A stretch of DNA of 64,000 bases from a virus (Duplodnaviria; Heunggongvirae; Uroviricota; Caudoviricetes): the IMG/VR virus record IMGVR_UViG_3300009008_000002; one strand, written 5' to 3'. Shown here in pieces: positions 18,367 to 57,926 of this stretch; positions within the stretch are counted from its first letter, which is position 1; each line of letters starts with the position of its first letter. A model generated the notes under the pieces. It did not search any database, was not told where the DNA came from, and worked only from the letters and a program-made list of their open reading frames with translations. The position numbers and the translations under genes are program-made.

Positions 18367-18773
18367 GCTCTTCTCCGACTTGGTTGTGGCTGCAACTCCA
18401 GTTCATCTTGCAGTTTTCGCAACATCCCTTCTAAGTCCCTGTTTGTGTCATCCACTTCACCGAAACACAACTCCAAATCCTCATTGTAGCGTTCCTTTAA
18501 AATTCGGTGAATCTCTGGAATGACCGTGTGCCAATAAAACACGCGGCCAATCCAGATTTTTAAAGTGAATACCTCAGTGTGAAGTTTTTCCACACCGTCA
18601 ACCTTAGCAATGCGCCTCAAAAATGCCTTATCAGCCGCAGACGGTTCTCCACCTTTTTTCAACCACGTTTCGGAACGTCCTGCATCTATCACACTTGGAA
18701 TCTCTTTATCCAAGTGCAATTCAGCATAACTTGGAGTGCCTGTAGATGCATTGCCGGTCCATCGAATTCGCAT
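18363..18773 (-). CDS. Hypothetical protein, weak resemblance to Nfu/NifU N-terminal domain
   Basis: IAKVDGVEKL...W..VIPEI segment; ATG 18773. Confidence 0.55.
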   Translation of the reverse strand: MRIRWTGNASTGTPSYAELHLDKEIPSVIDAGRSETWLKKGGEPSAADKAFLRRIAKVDGVEKLHTEVFTLKIWIGRVFYWHTVIPEIHRILKERYNEDLELCFGEVDDTNRDLEGMLRKLQDELELQPQPSRRRA

Positions 18774-18774
18774 T

Positions 18775-19353
18775 TTAGAATCTCCTACGTCGGCGGGTAT
18801 AACTACTGCCATACCGATAACTGCGCCTCTGTCCTGTGGGGTTATCGTGATCGTAGGGGTTCAAGTAGACGAATACACCGATACCAATACTAGCAAGCGT
18901 CACAAGGATGTAGGTAGTGACAACAGCCCATGTTGGTGGGTTCACTGTAAGGTAGCTAAACTCTGCATACTCTCGCCTTTCAAAGCGGTCGTAGCATTCT
19001 TTACCCATATAGGCCACAACTTCATTCAGATCAAGTGCCTTGCCGATTCTGCCGGTCACAAACGCTCGCACGTCCGCTTTCAGCTTCTCGTTTTTCGTCA
19101 TGGAAATCACGTAGGCCCACTTGATATTGTAAGCCTTATCCACACCGATGCAGAGTGTGAATTCATTTTTATTTCCGCCCTGCCAGTGCGATTCGTGGTC
19201 AATGGCATCTTGAACGCTGGTGCCTTCGCCAAACATCAAAATCCAAAGGCGTCCAGCCTTCAAATAATTCTTCTCAGGACCGGGGCGCGGGCCAATCAAG
19301 GCATTCCACCGCATCAACTCTTTCTCTATCAAATGCAAAAGCCCGTTAACCAT
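18775..19353 (-). pseudogene. C-terminal half of a split phage membrane protein
   Basis: WNALIG...LWILMF...WQGGNKNEF...FSYLTV plus C-terminal TM; track ATG lies inside a terminator hairpin; may still be translated from ATG 19314. Confidence 0.6.
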
Positions 19354-19371
19354 TGTTAACGGGTTTTTTTT
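19337..19371. terminator. Bidirectional terminator closing the inserted cassette
   Basis: AAAA-GCCCGTTAAC-CATT-GTTAACGGG-T8. Confidence 0.85.
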
Positions 19372-19373
19372 GA

Positions 19374-19841
19374 TTACATGTTGTTACGCATAAAACCTTT
19401 GGTCGCACCCTCAATTCCACCCCCACGACCTAGAGAATTTTGTTTCCAAAATTTAGGATTTTGATAATGAGTATCTGGCACATCGCTTCTAAATCCACCT
19501 TCTGGGTTTTGTCCATGTTTTCCTTGATAGAGTAATTTATCGGCTTGAGTTAAAACTCGATCCACATCTTGCATATCCACTACGCTACTATCTACATGCT
19601 TCATTCCTCTAGCTGCTGTAGTTAAATCTTTTAATAGTGATTTGTCTAATTGTTGAATCTGAATATTAGGAAAAGCTTTTTGTACTAATGCTCTATCAAT
19701 TGGTCCATTACTGCTCATTGCGCCAAATGCTCCTAATCCTATGGCACCACCCAGGGCAGCTTTTTTTGCCAAACCGCGCCAATCTACTTCGGCATATAAC
19801 TCAGGATCTCTCTCTTGCAACCATTCATTAAAAGCTAACAT
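19374..19841 (-). CDS. Late protein with capsid-targeting-like N-terminus
   Basis: MLAFNEWLQE; ATATATAG at 19860-19867; GGAGG RBS. Confidence 0.75.
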   Translation of the reverse strand: MLAFNEWLQERDPELYAEVDWRGLAKKAALGGAIGLGAFGAMSSNGPIDRALVQKAFPNIQIQQLDKSLLKDLTTAARGMKHVDSSVVDMQDVDRVLTQADKLLYQGKHGQNPEGGFRSDVPDTHYQNPKFWKQNSLGRGGGIEGATKGFMRNNM

Positions 19842-19909
19842 TTACATTTCCCTCCATCTCTATATATCAAAACCCCCATTTTTTATTCATTCGTTCTAAC
19901 CAACTTTGT

Positions 19910-20653
19910 TTAGACCTTTTGCTCAGCAGTTGCTTGAGTGGGACCACCTTGGCCCAGGATAACCGGGGTATTGTAATTATCATCCGGTTTCGGCAACTCG
20001 TAGAGAGTTTTAATTACATCCTCTGGCAATTCTGGGTATCGGAAAACACTGTGCGATGCCTGAATCCGGTTTTCATACCGTGAAGTCCAGGTGATAGGCT
20101 CAATAGACTTCCGTGAACCGGGCCACTGAACATGAAACATATCGCCTCGACCATCGGAACAATTGCATCTTTTGCCTTTTGGACAAGTCCACCCGTGTCG
20201 CTGATCAGAATGTCGCAAGTCGGTGTAAACTTCCGGTTTGCCCAACTCCCCCCAAGCAGACAGGATGCGATTGTATTCGCCTTGGGTAACTCGATAAGCC
20301 TTACCACCGTCTTTGATTTTATCCCAATGCTCTGGGTGGTGTTCTGTGCGAGTCTCGTAATGGCCGGGAACGTCAACCACGTAGTTGCCATCACTGTCTG
20401 TATGGCCTTGCTCTGGCACCCACTCTTCCCATTCACGGACATACTTCTCATGGTGTTCCACTTGAACAACCAGATCAGTACACCATTCGGTATCCGAAGT
20501 CTGACAGGTTTCAGTGCCGTATTTCATGCTGACAACGACTATGATGGTTGCCAGGAAAATGGCGGCTTCCCACCAAACCATCTTATCATGGAACATGAAA
20601 TACATTACTGCGATAGCTGCCAACGGGATTAGTAGGGCAAACCAGATAATCAT
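19910..20653 (-). CDS. N-terminal half of a split phage membrane protein
   Basis: Two N-terminal TMs; NRIQASHSVF motif; ends abruptly at AEQKV*. Confidence 0.65.
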   Translation of the reverse strand: MIIWFALLIPLAAIAVMYFMFHDKMVWWEAAIFLATIIVVVSMKYGTETCQTSDTEWCTDLVVQVEHHEKYVREWEEWVPEQGHTDSDGNYVVDVPGHYETRTEHHPEHWDKIKDGGKAYRVTQGEYNRILSAWGELGKPEVYTDLRHSDQRHGWTCPKGKRCNCSDGRGDMFHVQWPGSRKSIEPITWTSRYENRIQASHSVFRYPELPEDVIKTLYELPKPDDNYNTPVILGQGGPTQATAEQKV

Positions 20654-21636
20654 TTCAATTCCCTCTCTATTTTGGACTTCACGGCTTCTAATCGAGCTTC
20701 CACTTCCTCATGCAACTCTTTATCAGCTTGAGAAGCGGCTTCGATACGCTTGTGCAATTCGTCCCAGTCCAATTTTTTCCAATCTTCCACCGTATAGCCT
20801 TTGGCTTCCTCATAGACTGCCAAAAGTTTTGCACCGTATTGATCAGACATAGTTTTCAATTCGGCCAACTCAGTGTCTATTTCTTCTTTTTTGCCATCCA
20901 TTTTAATTGCATGTTTTTCAGCACGCCCCAGCAATGCCATCAATCCAATCAGAAGTGCCGCTACCGGATTCCAATACAACCAAAGGAAAGGACAGATAAT
21001 AAAAGTCGCAATCAGAGAAGCATTGCAAGCATAAGCTGTAGCTTTATTAACGTCGCCCGTAAGGCTAGTGATTGATGACCGCAATATCCTGCCGCCGTCC
21101 AGGGGGAAAATAGGCAGCATATTAAACAACCCGATGATGACATTTACTTCAAGGAACCATGTTGTCCAAAAGTTGGGATACATCATGGCAATAGGCCAAG
21201 CCAGCAAACCCATGATCACATTAGAACCGGGTCCAGCCACACCAATATAAAATTCGTGATAAGGTTTGTTGTAGAACTTACCTTCCAAATGCGCCATACC
21301 CGCCATCGGATAAATCTCAATTTTGGGAACCTTATACCCAAAATAAATTGCCACAATTGAATGGGCAAATTCATGGATCACAACAACTAGGTAAGCTAAA
21401 CCGATGATGCCAACTGTCTTCCAACCTCCCGCAAGGCCCAGAAACAAGAAGAAAATTATGAAGCTACGCCTGATCACGACGGGAACAAATAGCGGGATCG
21501 TAATGTGTGGAAATAATTTTGTAGGAAATTCGACAACCTTCAAGACTATCGAACCTTCCTTCAAAAACATGTGCGTTATGGCATAAATGCCAATCCAAAT
21601 TAAAAACAACCCCAAAAATAGCGTAGCTCCCATCAC
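20650..21636 (-). CDS. Site-2 protease (peptidase M50, SpoIVFB-like)
   Basis: HEFAH zinc motif, AGPGSN, NMLPIFPLDGG; multiple TMs. Confidence 0.9.
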   Translation of the reverse strand: MMGATLFLGLFLIWIGIYAITHMFLKEGSIVLKVVEFPTKLFPHITIPLFVPVVIRRSFIIFFLFLGLAGGWKTVGIIGLAYLVVVIHEFAHSIVAIYFGYKVPKIEIYPMAGMAHLEGKFYNKPYHEFYIGVAGPGSNVIMGLLAWPIAMMYPNFWTTWFLEVNVIIGLFNMLPIFPLDGGRILRSSITSLTGDVNKATAYACNASLIATFIICPFLWLYWNPVAALLIGLMALLGRAEKHAIKMDGKKEEIDTELAELKTMSDQYGAKLLAVYEEAKGYTVEDWKKLDWDELHKRIEAASQADKELHEEVEARLEAVKSKIERELK

Positions 21637-22037
21637 TCACCTTCCTTGTTTCTTTTGCGATCAGCCTCTATTGCCAACAACGCCTCATCACGCAGCGCCG
21701 TCAAGGCTTCATCTGGGTCCAATTCCACCACCCTAATGTCCTTTAGCGGGAAGTCACCATAAAGATTGCAGTTTTCTTCGGCATACTGTTCTGCACTCTC
21801 TCTGTTCATCCAGAATGAATATGCAGGACCACCAGACAAAGCATAGCCCAATCTTGGACTCCAACGCCACATGGCAGGCTTGCAGGTGTGATATAAAATA
21901 TCATCGTTCGCCCCCGTGCGAACAACGATAATATAAAACCTGTGGTTTTGTCGATGCCATTCTATTTGTTCATAGGTGCGAGAAATGTCTTCGTGATGGC
22001 CGACATGATTCTCTTCGTCAGGATTTCGTTCCCACAT
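21633..22037 (-). CDS. Hypothetical protein
   Basis: GAGG RBS. Confidence 0.7.
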   Translation of the reverse strand: MWERNPDEENHVGHHEDISRTYEQIEWHRQNHRFYIIVVRTGANDDILYHTCKPAMWRWSPRLGYALSGGPAYSFWMNRESAEQYAEENCNLYGDFPLKDIRVVELDPDEALTALRDEALLAIEADRKRNKEGE

Positions 22038-22124: not shown

Positions 22125-22772
22125 TTACTCTTCGGTCTTGGGCACCGGACTGTTGAACAGGTCAATGTCGTTCTCTTCGCCGGTTTCCACCATAATCTGC
22201 GTGTCCCGTGACGTGACGTAGACGTAGGTGTATTCAACCGGATAATCGAGCGGCGGGCCACCAGAAGTCACGGAATGACCGCGTTTATAAAACTTCTTGT
22301 TGTCGCCAAAGGTGGCCAGAATAAAACCACTGACCGGCCTTTCAATCAGGCTGTTTCGCTCACGGTCAAGGTCAACGAGCGCCTGTTGGTCGCGTTTGAA
22401 CACCTTACGTTCCGCTTCCACCGATACCATGATTTCTTTGTAGAGACTCGCAACCTCAGCTTGTCCGAGATCCGGGTGGTTTTCCGTCACCATCTTGAAC
22501 AACGCACCGCCTGAACGGCCCGCAACCAGATCCTCGTAGACCTTGTTCATATCTTTGATTTCGGCAGTAGCCTTCTCGGAAATCTGTGCCTTCTGCTTGA
22601 TCGTCTTCCACATGGTATCAAGCGTGGCTTCGTTCGCCGTGCTTTTGGCCTGGACTGCCACTCGCAAATCGGCTTCACTGTTGAGCGTGCCAAGGACACA
22701 GCCGCCCATACCAAGGACCAAAAGAACACCAAGGCCGACAACGGCCAACAAAGTAGCTTTCGCTGGGGTCAT
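22125..22772 (-). CDS. Single-TM coiled-coil protein (LemA-like)
   Basis: N-terminal TM then amphipathic helices; AAGGAG RBS. Confidence 0.6.
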   Translation of the reverse strand: MTPAKATLLAVVGLGVLLVLGMGGCVLGTLNSEADLRVAVQAKSTANEATLDTMWKTIKQKAQISEKATAEIKDMNKVYEDLVAGRSGGALFKMVTENHPDLGQAEVASLYKEIMVSVEAERKVFKRDQQALVDLDRERNSLIERPVSGFILATFGDNKKFYKRGHSVTSGGPPLDYPVEYTYVYVTSRDTQIMVETGEENDIDLFNSPVPKTEE

Positions 22773-25256: not shown

Positions 25257-26012
25257 TTAGTCCTTGTCCTTGAAGGGCGGAAACCCTTCATGCCATATTT
25301 CACTTATTTCCTCAATGGACGGAGGATCGTCATCCTCACGGTCCTTTGCGATTTCTTCAAATTCGTTAATGTTCATACAACGTATCTCTATGTCGTCGCT
25401 ATCCTCATCCAAGAAAGCAGCTTCCCACAAATTACAAAACCTGCCTTCTTTTTTAATATCACCCTCTTCGGTTGTAGAGTCAATCACTCTCCACTCAGCA
25501 AGCACAGGTTCAAAATCTTCAAAGTTTTCTGGATCTGTGCTTTCATCCCAAGGGTCATATTCTGGACGACAAATAGGCGAAGTTGCCCAAAGTTCACCAC
25601 CGGCATAACTGTATTGCATCATCACGATTTCGAGCCGATCAGGATGGCAACTTGGCATGACATATTGGCTCATTGCCTTCTCATAGGATTCTGCCGTTGC
25701 GGCTTCCAGTGACCAAGCCTCAGTGCAAAAACAGACAGCCTCAGCCCCTTCACGAATCAACTGTTTCATAAGGCGAGCTACCATGTCTTTTTCAGATTGA
25801 GAAGACATTTCAGCGATGAAAATTAAATCCACTCGCTCGGCGGTAACTCTTACAAGGTGTGGAGGAATGTTATGGGTGCGTCTGAAAGAACTCTCTGTTG
25901 ATTCTTTAATCTGATTGAACGTTTTTAGATGTTCTTCGTATTCCACAGGTCGGACCCTTATTTGCTGCTGTGTGCGGTGGTGGCGTTGGATCGCTACCCA
26001 TTTGATGCCCAT
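25257..26012 (-). CDS. Hypothetical protein (start uncertain)
   Basis: Long acidic ORF; 5' end overlapped by 25906..26412. Confidence 0.7.
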   Translation of the reverse strand: MGIKWVAIQRHHRTQQQIRVRPVEYEEHLKTFNQIKESTESSFRRTHNIPPHLVRVTAERVDLIFIAEMSSQSEKDMVARLMKQLIREGAEAVCFCTEAWSLEAATAESYEKAMSQYVMPSCHPDRLEIVMMQYSYAGGELWATSPICRPEYDPWDESTDPENFEDFEPVLAEWRVIDSTTEEGDIKKEGRFCNLWEAAFLDEDSDDIEIRCMNINEFEEIAKDREDDDPPSIEEISEIWHEGFPPFKDKD

Positions 26013-26412
26013 TCACCATAGGTCCATCTAAAATCAATGGTTCGGTGTGCGATTTTCCAACTCCCATTCTCACCAAGTCTAAGTTTTTGGCAACTCCAAT
26101 GCTTGAACCACTATCCGACTTATGTTCCCACGATTCATCATTCGGAATTGTTGTTGAAAACGGTGAAACATATTTCCAGTTTAAAATATCAGGGTCGATA
26201 TTGTAGAGTGGTCTTCCTATCTGTTCCCCTCGTTTCCATCGCCATTGCATCCACCAAAAGTATTTCGGAGTAGCAACGTCAATTGGATAATCACCGGCTT
26301 CTGTGGGATATATTAAATCCCAAGCACAGCCATTATCGCTCTCGCCACCACCTACGAAACCCTCTTGTCCGTGGTTGCCTTCCTCATTTAAAAGCCACTC
26401 TTTGAATTCCAT
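25906..26412 (-). CDS. Late protein with capsid-targeting-like N-terminus
   Basis: MEFKEWLLNEE; CTAAATA 5 nt before ATG. Confidence 0.7.
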   Translation of the reverse strand: MEFKEWLLNEEGNHGQEGFVGGGESDNGCAWDLIYPTEAGDYPIDVATPKYFWWMQWRWKRGEQIGRPLYNIDPDILNWKYVSPFSTTIPNDESWEHKSDSGSSIGVAKNLDLVRMGVGKSHTEPLILDGPMVNGHQMGSDPTPPPHTAANKGPTCGIRRTSKNVQSD

Positions 26413-54234: not shown

Positions 54235-54784
54235 ACCAAGCATCAAAAAGATTTTCAGTCGCCTCAGTGCTTTTAATATGGGGTGGTCGCTGATTCAGCC
54301 TCCAGTCCCTTTCAAAGAACACTAGATCCTTTCTATCCAAATTATGATTGTAGACGTGCCAGTTGTTGTTGTGAGTTGCACCTAACAACTGCACTCTGGT
54401 CTTTAAAACTTCATTGGACTCTTGCAGATTAGCAACGTCCTCACGAAGCCTAATCATCCTATCATAATAATAATAATCAGGATCTTGTTTTTGTGGTCGT
54501 TGATAATGTGGATCGGTCGGGTAAAGCTGCGGTGGTCGCACCTGTTGCGTAACAGGCTGCTGAACTCCTTTATTGTTATTCATGATCACAAAACCAAGAC
54601 CTAAAGCCAAAACTAACAACAATCCTAGATACAATGGGCGATTGTCATTACTTTTCTTTCGTTGGATAATCGTTGGTGTCCCAGACACGGTTTCTACCTC
54701 CACATTGGCGCTTCCGCCTGCATATGCTCTCCTTGCAAATAAATTTCCTATATCATCTCTCATATCATCCCACTTGCCACTCAT
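54224..54784 (-). CDS. Single-TM coiled-coil late protein
   Basis: ATATATAG at 54812-54819; GGAGG RBS. Confidence 0.75.
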   Translation of the reverse strand: MSGKWDDMRDDIGNLFARRAYAGGSANVEVETVSGTPTIIQRKKSNDNRPLYLGLLLVLALGLGFVIMNNNKGVQQPVTQQVRPPQLYPTDPHYQRPQKQDPDYYYYDRMIRLREDVANLQESNEVLKTRVQLLGATHNNNWHVYNHNLDRKDLVFFERDWRLNQRPPHIKSTEATENLFDAWSTD

Positions 54785-54872
54785 TGCAGTTCCTCCACAC
54801 TTATTCTTGTACTATATATGCGAAAGAAACAGAAACATACATTGATTTTATCGACTCCTGGTATTATTATAG

Positions 54873-55322
54873 TTATCTCATTTGATTTATAATGAAATGC
54901 ACTTCTTGCCCTTCTAAACCTTGCTGCATGAGGTATTGAGTAGTTTGCGCAACATCAACTACCCCCTGATTTTTTTGCATTAATGACTGGGCTAATCTAG
55001 CCCCCAACCCACCTTCTAAGGCTTCTATTCTGCTAGGTTTATCAAGACTTTGGAGTTGTTGTATAATTTGCCCTATCTCGTCTTTGCTGCCCCAAAAAGT
55101 CACTCCCTCATTTTTTTTATTCACATATTTGGGGCGGGGAATCTGATTTCCTGCTTTCAGCACTTTAAAAGGCTCTGTAACTCCCATGTTTTCTAAATCC
55201 CCAGGATAATCCTTGCTTAAATCGTCTCGAATATCTCGCACGCCAGCAGGCGGTTTAGGGATGTGTTGTTTTAATTTTTTAGCCTTTTCATGCTCAGTTA
55301 GCCATTGTTCAAAAGTTTTCAC
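54873..55322 (-). CDS. Late protein with capsid-targeting-like N-terminus
   Basis: MKTFEQWLTE. Confidence 0.75.
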   Translation of the reverse strand: MKTFEQWLTEHEKAKKLKQHIPKPPAGVRDIRDDLSKDYPGDLENMGVTEPFKVLKAGNQIPRPKYVNKKNEGVTFWGSKDEIGQIIQQLQSLDKPSRIEALEGGLGARLAQSLMQKNQGVVDVAQTTQYLMQQGLEGQEVHFIINQMR

Positions 55323-56226: not shown

Positions 56227-56236
56227 AATATATATT
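56227..56236. promoter_or_regulatory. Palindromic late-type promoter AATATATATT between divergent genes
   Basis: ATATATA-N5-ATG on + strand. Confidence 0.6.
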
Positions 56237-57916: not shown

Positions 57917-57926
57917 TTATATATAA
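57917..57926. promoter_or_regulatory. Palindromic late-type promoter TTATATATAA between divergent genes
   Basis: ATATATA-N5-ATG on + strand; AAGGAG leader on - strand. Confidence 0.6.

What the first reader, a model, noticed from the sequence alone, without database searches (positions are those of the whole stretch)
18775..20653. Self-contained late cassette inserted inside a membrane-protein gene
Seen: 19910..20653 stops at ...QATAEQKV*, and 18775..19353 resumes ...EKELMRWNALIG. Between them (about 19318-19914) is a complete unit: ATATATA promoter, GGAGG RBS, a 155-aa F-x-E-W-L protein and a bidirectional terminator. The downstream ORF's first ATG lies inside the terminator. Inference from family recall: the halves form one ~440-aa phage membrane protein normally linked to the LemA-like gene at 22125. 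No integrase, transposase or intron core is present, so the insertion mechanism is unexplained.
Basis: partly seen in the sequence, partly recalled or inferred. Interest (0 to 1): 0.7.

Follow-up and report, generated by a model that had tools for sequence, protein, structure and literature searches.

The report
Phage membrane gene split by cassette
In a giant marine phage, a membrane-protein gene that is a single piece in every other relative examined has been cut in two by a 589-base self-contained mini-gene, a rare "gene in pieces" made without any recognisable mobility enzyme.

Summary
Observation confirmed; interpretation supported. On the minus strand, ORFs 19910-20653 (247 aa) and 18775-19353 (192 aa) are the N- and C-terminal parts of one conserved giant-phage membrane protein (phrog_2087). 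An uninterrupted 428-aa allele, about 90% identical to both halves, sits in the same 90% cluster. All 161 related loci and 24 database homologs read straight across the break.

Between the halves lies a strict 589-nt insert (19327-19915). It is AT-rich: GC 0.38 against 0.49 in the flanks, and its ORF has the lowest GC3 of 76 ORFs. It carries an ATATATAG box, a GGAGGG ribosome site, a conserved 155-aa ORF and a two-way terminator hairpin whose loop holds the downstream ORF's first ATG.

Nothing intron-, intein- or transposon-like was found. The break lies inside a TPM-like fold, not at a domain border.

Most likely a moron-type cassette entered by illegitimate recombination. Whether the two chains still work together is open, at about even odds. 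Neither half shows extra change when measured against outgroups.

This is a new variant of known kinds: Aeh1 nrdA::mobE genes-in-pieces, and morons.

The parts
19916..20653 (-). Native N-terminal part of the split gene. It encodes two N-terminal TM helices, a beta-rich ectodomain and strand 1 of the TPM-like fold. The ORF runs on to the insert-supplied Val and TAA at 19910-19915. Its ATG overlaps the stop of the upstream M50 peptidase gene (ATGA).
19327..19915 (-). Inserted cassette, 589 nt by the strict definition (DNA with no counterpart in intact homologs). GC is 0.380 against 0.488 and 0.493 in the flanks. It is bracketed by an imperfect short direct repeat, GAG CAA AAG (19924-19916) and GAG AAA G (19326-19320). 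Both copies encode the Glu-Lys that aligns to one position in intact proteins.
19860..19867 (-). ATATATAG promoter-like box. Similar ATATATA(G/A) boxes followed by an SD site precede the genes starting at 54784 and 57897.
   Evidence: function not shown
19850..19855 (-). GGAGGG ribosome-binding site, 8 nt before the ATG at 19841
19374..19841 (-). 155-aa ORF of the cassette. It has a conserved N-terminal leader (F-N-E-W-L..R-D-P-E-L-Y..E-V-D-W-R-G-L), a Gly/Ala-rich mildly hydrophobic stretch, and a C-terminal P-E-G-G-F-R-S-D-V-P-D-T-H-Y-Q-N-P motif. GC3 is 0.237.
19337..19368 (.). Palindromic intrinsic-terminator-like hairpin flanked by an A-run and a T-run, so terminator-like on both strands. 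Its loop holds the first ATG (19353-19351) of the C-half ORF.
18775..19326 (-). Native C-terminal part of the split gene: helix 1 onward of the TPM-like fold, a C-terminal TM helix and an Arg-rich tail. Possible starts are ATG 19353 (adds 9 insert-derived residues, no SD) and ATG 19314 (the conserved Met of ELMRW, preceded by the purine tract GAGAAAGAG). Its last codons hold the AGGAGA site for the next gene (ATG 18773).
22125..22772 (-). Usual partner gene (phrog_1383, 'virion structural protein', LemA-like at best sub-threshold). In relatives it lies directly upstream of the intact gene. Here it is separated from it by a 134-aa ORF and the M50 peptidase gene (20650-21636).

Best explanation
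A 589-bp AT-rich, self-contained expression cassette was inserted at the DNA level into the coding sequence of a conserved giant-phage membrane-protein gene. The cassette holds a promoter-like box, a strong ribosome site, a 155-aa gene and a hairpin terminator. The insertion left a 'gene in pieces'.

Shown:
- The two flanking ORFs are colinear parts of one protein family.
- That family is a single gene everywhere else, including in a ~90% identical relative.
- The insert is compositionally foreign to its flanks and encodes a conserved small protein.
- No RNA-, protein- or transposase-type removal or mobility signature is present.

Inferred:
- Entry was by illegitimate or microhomology-mediated recombination. 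The cassette is bracketed by an imperfect 6-9-nt repeat, and both copies encode the same Glu-Lys.
- The cassette came from the phage group's own pool of AT-rich genes that use the ATATATA-type box.
- The interruption is not repaired. The N fragment is translated by coupling to the upstream M50 gene and ends at an insert-supplied stop.
- The C fragment, if made, starts at ATG 19314 or 19353.

My committed reading of the consequence: the two membrane-anchored chains still associate and act as a two-chain protein (about 45%), against a tolerated knock-out (about 35-40%).

The confidence given is for the core claim only: a DNA-level cassette insertion that split a single gene and is not spliced out.
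For: Same family, colinear: phrog_2087 profile positions 1-198 and 243-357.

Intact alleles:
- P0031, 428 aa, is in the same 90% cluster and 90.2% / 92.9% identical to the two halves.
- 24 of 24 homologs are 339-427 aa.
- 161 of 161 IMG/VR and GTDB loci are continuous across residue 246.
- Lak phages and LR756511 carry a single frame.

Foreign composition: insert GC 0.380 against 0.488 and 0.493 in the flanks; insert ORF GC3 0.237, the lowest of 76 ORFs (mean 0.447, sd 0.064).

Real gene in the insert: 14 relatives among 1.84 billion representatives, with E down to 1e-78 and conserved motifs at both ends.

The cassette family sits in other contexts elsewhere: inside operons (L002, L164) and alone between opposite-strand genes (L165). 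It is never within 4 kb of the split gene's homologs.

Not an artefact: both halves are recorded on 3 contigs (longest 193,439 nt) from JGI, Logan and ENA, and the insert ORF occurs in two variants that differ by one residue.

No decay: the window's halves are as far from outgroup P0002 as intact P0031 is (N 71.4 vs 71.4%, C 79.5 vs 79.4%). Against P0033 the C half is slightly lower (74.6 vs 76.7%).

Precedent for function after such a split: Aeh1 NrdA-a/NrdA-b, where tails created by the insertion are essential (PMC3045599).
Against: - The junction is therefore defined only at the protein level, and the repeat is imperfect.
- Promoter activity is unproven: ATATATA is not enriched.
- No second copy of the cassette or of its ends exists in the 64-kb window, so mobility is inferred from differing contexts only.

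Against the two-chain reading:
- The break falls inside a high-confidence helix (240-254, pLDDT about 96) of the TPM-like fold, between strand 1 and helix 1, not in a linker.
- The C fragment has no signal peptide, although positive-inside reasoning places its roughly 130-residue N-terminal part outside the cytoplasm (plus inference).
- A terminator now sits in mid-operon, and no TAAAATTGGRG-type promoter lies between 17268 and 23570.
Confidence: 0.8

Rival explanations
1. Tolerated knock-out. The insertion simply inactivated an accessory gene, at least its TPM-like domain. The C-half ORF is a not-yet-decayed remnant, and only the cassette gene and perhaps the truncated N fragment matter.
For: - The break lies inside a folded domain.
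- The C fragment lacks an export signal and a good ribosome site. Its first ATG sits in a hairpin loop.
- A terminator lies directly upstream.
- Identical halves on all three contigs are compatible with a recent event.
Against: - The gene is very widely kept in huge phages, always with its partner gene: 265 IMG/VR relatives, 102 MAG relatives, and the partner in 130 of 161 loci.
- Both ORFs are intact, and there is no rate acceleration against the outgroups.
- The allele exists in at least two strain variants.
Confidence: 0.37
2. Self-splicing intron (group I or II) carrying an ORF, removed from the mRNA so that a full-length protein is made.
For: Phage introns often carry ORFs with their own promoter and ribosome site. 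The interruption lies in a conserved gene.
Against: - No Rfam family matches in 18500-20900 at E up to 1.
- The whole insert folds no better than shuffled sequence (z -0.19).
- Only about 74 nt 5' and about 47 nt 3' of the ORF remain for a ribozyme core.
- No in-frame pair of a U-ending exon and a G-ending intron exists around the junction (read).
Confidence: 0.03
3. Programmed or frequent DNA excision. The cassette is cut out by a recombinase encoded elsewhere, or by recombination at the short repeat, restoring the intact gene in part of the population.
For: An imperfect short direct repeat brackets the insert, and both copies encode the same two residues. PeSL-type cassettes of T4-like phages form mini-circles (PMC2839356).
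Against: - The repeat is only 6-9 nt and imperfect.
- No recombinase lies nearby.
- No empty-site allele of the same strain is on record. The intact allele is about 10% diverged.
Confidence: 0.05
4. Assembly artefact: a chimeric contig joining unrelated reads inside the gene.
For: The source is metagenomic, and the composition changes abruptly at both junctions.
Against: - The same two half-proteins are recorded on three contigs from three assembly sources, and the insert ORF has two variants.
- Both junctions resume the gene at the same residue pair.
- A chimera would not place a complete, signal-equipped gene exactly between colinear halves.
Confidence: 0.03

Closest known systems
Genes-in-pieces nrdA of Aeromonas phage Aeh1, split by the free-standing endonuclease gene mobE (Crona et al. 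2010, PMC3045599)
   Same: A conserved phage gene is cut into two ORFs by an independent inserted gene. The insertion supplies the new stop, the new start and short terminal tails. There is no RNA or protein splicing.
   Different: The inserted gene here shows no nuclease or other mobility domain. The split protein is a membrane protein of unknown function, and activity of the pieces is untested.
Morons of lambdoid phages such as HK97 gene 15 (PMC3594210)
   Same: An added unit with its own promoter-like and terminator elements, and a GC content unlike that of the neighbouring genes.
   Different: Morons sit between genes of temperate phages and are expressed from the prophage. This unit sits inside a coding sequence of a huge, probably virulent phage, and its upstream box resembles the phage's own AT-rich gene class.
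PeSL (promoter-early stem-loop) cassettes of T4-type phages RB49 and phi1 (Arbiol et al. 2010, PMC2839356)
   Same: Small promoter-plus-terminator-bounded gene modules that are shuffled without an element-encoded recombinase.
   Different: PeSL shuffling occurs between repeated PeSL copies in intergenic hyperplastic regions. No repeated copy of this cassette's ends was found in the window, and the target here is a coding sequence.
T4 internal proteins with the capsid targeting sequence MKTYQEFIAE (PMC8442874)
   Same: The 155-aa protein starts MLAFNEWLQE, the same pattern of aromatic-x-Glu-aromatic-aliphatic-x-Glu. Unrelated proteins in the window and in relatives share the leader.
   Different: The conserved leader here is about 25-36 residues long. 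The Leu-x-Glu cleavage pattern is kept in only 4 of 14 family members. Protease, processing and packaging are all untested.
TPM-domain proteins (Psb32, TLP18.3, BA41/BA42; Pfam PF04536)
   Same: Residues about 211-360 of the intact protein superpose on six TPM structures (Z 7.2-8.8, 121-135 residues, rmsd 3.0-4.4 A). The layout of ectodomain, TM helix and tail also matches.
   Different: No Pfam TPM hit for the two window halves at E up to 0.1. An extra beta-rich domain and two N-terminal TM helices are present. The Z values are middling.

Membership tests
phrog_2087 giant-phage membrane protein (the split host gene) | Both pieces match one family profile in colinear order | tested here: met
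   N half on profile positions 1-198 (E 2.7e-8), C half on 243-357 (E 4e-20)
phrog_2087 giant-phage membrane protein (the split host gene) | Family members are single uninterrupted genes | tested here: met
   P0031 (428 aa) is about 90% identical; 24 of 24 proteins are 339-427 aa; 161 of 161 loci are continuous across the break
phrog_2087 giant-phage membrane protein (the split host gene) | Partner gene (phrog_1383) directly upstream | tested here: met
   130 of 161 loci on the same strand, median gap 54 nt. In the window the partner is present but 1.47 kb away.
TPM domain (PF04536) | TPM fold or profile match | tested here: inconclusive
   Six TPM structures lead the unbiased structure search (Z 7.2-8.8), but there is no Pfam hit at E up to 0.1 for the two window halves. 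The intact P0031 was not scanned against Pfam and has no NCBIfam hit.
Moron | Own promoter and own terminator | tested here: inconclusive
   The terminator-like hairpin is found on both strands. An ATATATAG box is present, but the motif is not enriched and its activity is unknown.
Moron | Base composition unlike the neighbouring genes | tested here: met
   GC 0.380 against 0.488 and 0.493; GC3 0.237, the lowest of 76 ORFs
Moron | Inserted between two genes | tested here: not met
   It lies inside a coding sequence, at residue 246 of a 428-aa protein
Genes-in-pieces by homing-endonuclease insertion (mobE/nrdA type) | Conserved gene cut into two ORFs by an intervening free-standing gene | tested here: met
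Genes-in-pieces by homing-endonuclease insertion (mobE/nrdA type) | The intervening gene encodes a homing endonuclease (GIY-YIG, HNH, LAGLIDADG and the like) | tested here: not met
   No Pfam, PHROG or NCBIfam family. All 14 relatives are small proteins without nuclease motifs. The AF2 model is unusable (pLDDT 54).
Genes-in-pieces by homing-endonuclease insertion (mobE/nrdA type) | The fragments reassemble into an active protein | not testable with these tools
   Only indirect evidence: intact ORFs and no rate acceleration
Group I / group II intron | Ribozyme core recognisable by covariance model or by excess structure | tested here: not met
   Rfam finds nothing at E up to 1; fold z-score -0.19
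Intein | In-frame insertion without stops, translated through | tested here: not met
   The insert is 589 nt (1 mod 3), with a TAA two codons after the junction and several further stops
IS element / MITE | Terminal inverted repeats, a transposase, a clean target-site duplication | tested here: not met
   No terminal inverted repeats and no transposase. Only an imperfect GAG(C)AAA(A)G / GAGAAAG repeat is present.
T4-type capsid-targeted internal protein | N-terminal CTS-like decapeptide | tested here: met
   MLAFNEWLQE against MKTYQEFIAE. This is a resemblance only.
T4-type capsid-targeted internal protein | Conserved Leu/Ile-x-Glu protease site at the end of the leader | tested here: not met
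   Kept in 4 of 14 aligned family members
T4-type capsid-targeted internal protein | Processed protein present inside virions; matching prohead protease in the genome | not testable with these tools
   No whole genome is held and there is no proteome

The most novel reading that the evidence does not exclude
The cassette belongs to an undescribed class of recombinase-less, promoter-to-terminator mini-genes of giant marine phages. Each carries a shared about 25-36-residue N-terminal leader, possibly a virion-packaging signal like the T4 CTS, on varied cargo. These mini-genes hop between genomic sites, including into coding sequences. The split TPM-like membrane protein survives because insertion-derived tails and the two membrane anchors let the chains reassemble.
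Probability: 0.12. Interest if true: 0.7.

Novelty: new variant of a known kind. Interest (0 to 1): 0.45.

Why it matters
Genes in pieces made by inserted DNA are known almost only for essential replication or nucleotide genes hit by homing endonucleases. Here the intruder is an ordinary-looking small gene with its own expression signals and no mobility enzyme, and the target is a membrane protein.

If the two chains still work, this is a natural split-protein experiment on a TPM-like fold. It would also show that moron-type gene gain can hit coding sequence without killing the gene.

If they do not work, it shows that a module kept by hundreds of huge phages is dispensable in at least one lineage.

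The work also adds two annotations:
- A fold assignment (TPM-like ectodomain) and a fixed partner gene for phrog_2087, which has no known function.
- A small leader-bearing protein family confined to such phages.

Tried and rejected
- Intron: Rfam scan and whole-insert folding were both negative.
- Intein or readthrough: stops and frame exclude them.
- IS/MITE: no terminal inverted repeats.
- Second copy of the cassette or of its ends in the window: only chance matches of 13 nt or less.
- DNA or protein relatives of the insert among 50,697 phage records: none.
- Relatives of the insert in IMG/VR: three scans gave only two distant leader-only hits.
- The single metagenome scan returned one 1.2-kb contig.
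- Close relatives of the N half in IMG/VR: none.
- Fold of the 155-aa protein: AF2 pLDDT 54; the ESM Atlas model has pLDDT 0.42 and no useful neighbours.
- Foldseek of the intact-protein model against PDB: nothing at E up to 1e-3. The TPM match came from the unbiased aligner.
- LemA identity of the partner gene: no PDB or NCBIfam hit; Pfam only sub-threshold in 1 of 10 homologs.
- No whole genome is held.
The contigs of P0031, P0026, P0028 and P0045 could therefore not be read, and no base-level empty-site comparison or dN/dS was possible.
- Literature search for the LemA-TPM pairing gave nothing usable.
Full report
**The observation.** Window 18700-20700 on the minus strand holds three consecutive ORFs.
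- 19910-20653 (247 aa) ends ...QATAEQKV and then TAA.
- 19374-19841 (155 aa) starts MLAFNEWLQE.
- 18775-19353 (192 aa) starts MVNGLLHLI and continues EKELMRWNALIG.

Upstream of the middle ORF lie ATATATAG (19867-19860) and GGAGGG (19855-19850), the latter 8 nt before the ATG. Downstream, a palindrome at 19337-19368 scores as terminator-like on both strands. It folds into a 9-bp perfect stem extended by A/U pairs. The ATG at 19353-19351 lies in its AAUG loop.

**Are the outer ORFs one gene?** Both match the same PHROG profile in colinear order: phrog_2087 positions 1-198 for the first and 243-357 for the last.
- tblastn against phage records finds both parts adjacent and in one frame in huge phages: LR756511, Lak phages, phage G, Atu_ph07 and the Tenacibaculum phages. 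In LR756511 the gene is a single 388-aa ORF.
- In the 5.8-billion-protein collection, the 24 homologs of the N half are all 339-427 aa. Only the window's own protein is 247 aa.
- Decisively, the 90%-identity cluster that holds both halves also holds P0031, an uninterrupted 428-aa protein. It is 90.2% identical to the N half and 92.9% to the C half, and reads straight through the break (...QATANKLLMQWNALIG...).
- I then collected 80 IMG/VR loci (of 265 relatives) and 80 loci from GTDB assemblies (of 102). With LR756511 that makes 161 loci. In all 161, tblastn with P0031 reads continuously across residue 246, and 150 give one alignment over nearly the whole protein. The one two-piece case (L094) is a frame change at residues 133-170, not at the break.
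- A search with the C half for short stand-alone forms returned four fragments on 1-3-kb contigs.

**The junction.** Alignments A1 and A3 and the codon table place native sequence up to AAG (Lys, 19918-19916) on the N side, and from GAG (Glu, 19326-19324) on the C side.
- The DNA without a counterpart in intact proteins is 19327-19915: 589 nt, which is 1 mod 3.
- Both sides keep a Glu-Lys (GAG CAA AAG, and GAG AAA G) that aligns to one Asx/Glu-Lys position in intact homologs. An imperfect 6-9-nt direct repeat therefore brackets the insert.
- The insert supplies Val and TAA to the N fragment. If ATG 19353 is used, it supplies nine residues to the C fragment.

**The insert is foreign to its flanks.** Its GC is 0.380 against 0.488 and 0.493 (profile). 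Its ORF has GC3 0.237, the lowest of 76 long ORFs (mean 0.447, sd 0.064). The next lowest ORFs lie in the AT-rich block at 54-58 kb, whose genes also have ATATATA(G/A) boxes followed by an SD site.

ATATATA as such is not enriched (6 matches against 3.5 expected), so promoter function and 'late' timing stay inferences. The window's abundant start signal TAAAATTGGRG (32 matches against 4.25 expected) is absent between 17268 and 23570. The cassette and its terminator therefore sit inside what looks like one long transcription unit.

**The inserted gene.**
- It has no Pfam, PHROG or NCBIfam family and no match in phage records.
- It is nevertheless a real, conserved gene. There are four relatives in the clustered collection and 14 among 1.84 billion representatives, with E down to 1e-78.
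- Members are 139-229 aa. They share a leader (F-x-E-W-L-x-x-R-D-x-E-L-Y-x-E-V/I-D-W-R/K-G) and a Gly/Ala-rich stretch. That stretch does not reach a transmembrane hydropathy threshold. Most also share a C-terminal P-E-D/G-G-x-R-x-D-V-P-D-T-H-Y-Q-x-P motif.
- Three members share only the leader, attached to unrelated C-termini.
- The contexts differ. In L002 and L164 the gene abuts the preceding gene inside an operon; in L002 it is followed by another ORF starting MPLFREFI. In L165 it stands alone between opposite-strand genes.
- None of the 161 loci of the split gene's family has such a gene within 4 kb.
- The first ten residues resemble the T4 capsid targeting sequence MKTYQEFIAE (PMC8442874).
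- The Leu-x-Glu cleavage pattern is kept in only 4 of 14 family members. Packaging is a lead, not a finding.
- Structure prediction failed (pLDDT 54; ESM Atlas).

**What is the split protein?** AlphaFold2 on the intact allele with 26 homologs gave a good model (pLDDT 85, pTM 0.75).
- It has two N-terminal TM helices, a beta-rich domain, an alpha/beta domain, a C-terminal TM helix and an Arg-rich tail.
- Foldseek found nothing significant. The exhaustive aligner put six independent TPM-domain structures at or near the top, all on residues about 211-360: Psb32 Z 8.8, TLP18.3 Z 8.7, BA41 7.9, and 7tbr, 2kw7 and 2kpt at 7.2-7.4.
- The Z values are middling and Pfam TPM does not hit the two halves, so I call the domain TPM-like.
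- The break at residue 246 lies inside helix 240-254 (block pLDDT 96), between the first strand and first helix of this domain. It is not at a domain border.
- By the positive-inside rule, the region between TM2 and TM3 is extracytoplasmic (my inference).
- The partner gene at 22125 (phrog_1383, annotated 'virion structural protein' in phage PTm1) lies directly upstream of the intact gene in 130 of 161 loci. Here a 134-aa ORF and an M50 peptidase gene separate the two. Its LemA character is only sub-threshold.

**Ways the interruption could be undone.**
- Intron: no Rfam family at E up to 1, no excess structure (z -0.19), and only about 74 and 47 nt outside the ORF.
- Intein or readthrough: excluded by stops and frame.
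- Transposon: no terminal inverted repeats and no transposase.
- Assembly error: unlikely. Both halves are recorded on three contigs from three assembly sources, and the insert ORF exists in two variants that differ by one residue.

**Mechanism and consequence.** The best-supported history is the gain of a moron-type unit by illegitimate or microhomology-mediated recombination, landing inside a gene rather than between genes. Such a unit has its own signals and a deviating GC content (PMC3594210).
- The closest functional precedent is Aeh1 nrdA split by mobE. There, tails created by the insertion are essential for reassembly of the two chains (PMC3045599). Here the intruder has no endonuclease features.
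- For continued function: the very wide retention of the gene with its partner, the intact ORFs, and a relative-rate check. The window's halves are as distant from outgroup P0002 as the intact P0031 is (N 71.4 vs 71.4%, C 79.5 vs 79.4%), with a slight lag of the C half against P0033.
- Against: the intradomain break, the missing export signal and weak start of the C fragment, and the new terminator.
- I put a two-chain protein at about 45% and a tolerated knock-out at about 35-40%.

**Limits.**
I therefore could not read the DNA of the intact allele or of the cassette's closer relatives.
- A sequence look-up of the insert ORF in the scan's notes found no look-alike on other DNA.

Noticed in passing
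window 20650-22037: An M50-family (site-2-protease-like) peptidase gene (Pfam E 1.1e-17) and a 134-aa ORF sit between the partner gene and the split gene. These two are adjacent in most relatives. Only 1 of 161 related loci has an M50-like match nearby, so this module took a second, intergenic insertion in this lineage.
   Followed up: partly
window 19374-19841, 25906-26412, 54873-55322; L002 546-1127 and the ORF starting at 1127; L164 4992-5543; L165 about 1158-1691: A shared N-terminal leader (aromatic-x-E-W/F-L/I, often extended to ..R-D-x-E-L-Y-x-E-V-D-W) heads small proteins with unrelated C-termini in this phage and in relatives. None has a Pfam domain. It resembles the T4 capsid targeting sequence, but the cleavage pattern is not conserved.
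   Followed up: partly
protein P0045 (WGS LFUG01, 2,365-nt contig): A 153-aa protein, 63% identical to the C half, begins exactly at the conserved Met of ELMRW, which is the second candidate start (ATG 19314) here. It is either a contig-edge fragment or a second split allele. The contig could not be fetched.
   Followed up: no
L084-L163 (GTDB assemblies): About 100 MAGs carry contigs with this huge-phage gene pair. They are labelled Patescibacteria/CPR, Bacteroidales, Prevotella, an archaeon and others. Most are probably phage contigs binned with cellular genomes, and some are Lak-like in Prevotella and Bacteroidales bins.
   Followed up: no
L094 194-1323: In one relative (a Saccharibacteria-labelled MAG contig) the gene shows a frame change between residues 133 and 170. 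This is either a sequencing error or a real frameshift.
   Followed up: no
window 54813-54819, 56228-56235, 57918-57925, 19861-19867: All four distinct ATATATA sites lie in intergenic DNA just upstream of gene starts, and two are palindromic between divergent genes. The genes they precede are the most AT-rich in the window. This may be a second promoter class beside TAAAATTGGRG.
   Followed up: partly
window 18771-18786: The gene after the C half most likely starts at ATG 18773 (MRIRW...), 7 nt after an AGGAGA site that lies inside the C half's last codons. It probably does not start at the longer ORF's ATG at 18812.
   Followed up: no
model m89f0ca7cf5fe (P0031), residues about 211-360: phrog_2087, listed with unknown function, has a TPM-like ectodomain preceded by a beta-rich domain that has no clear structural match.
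   Followed up: partly
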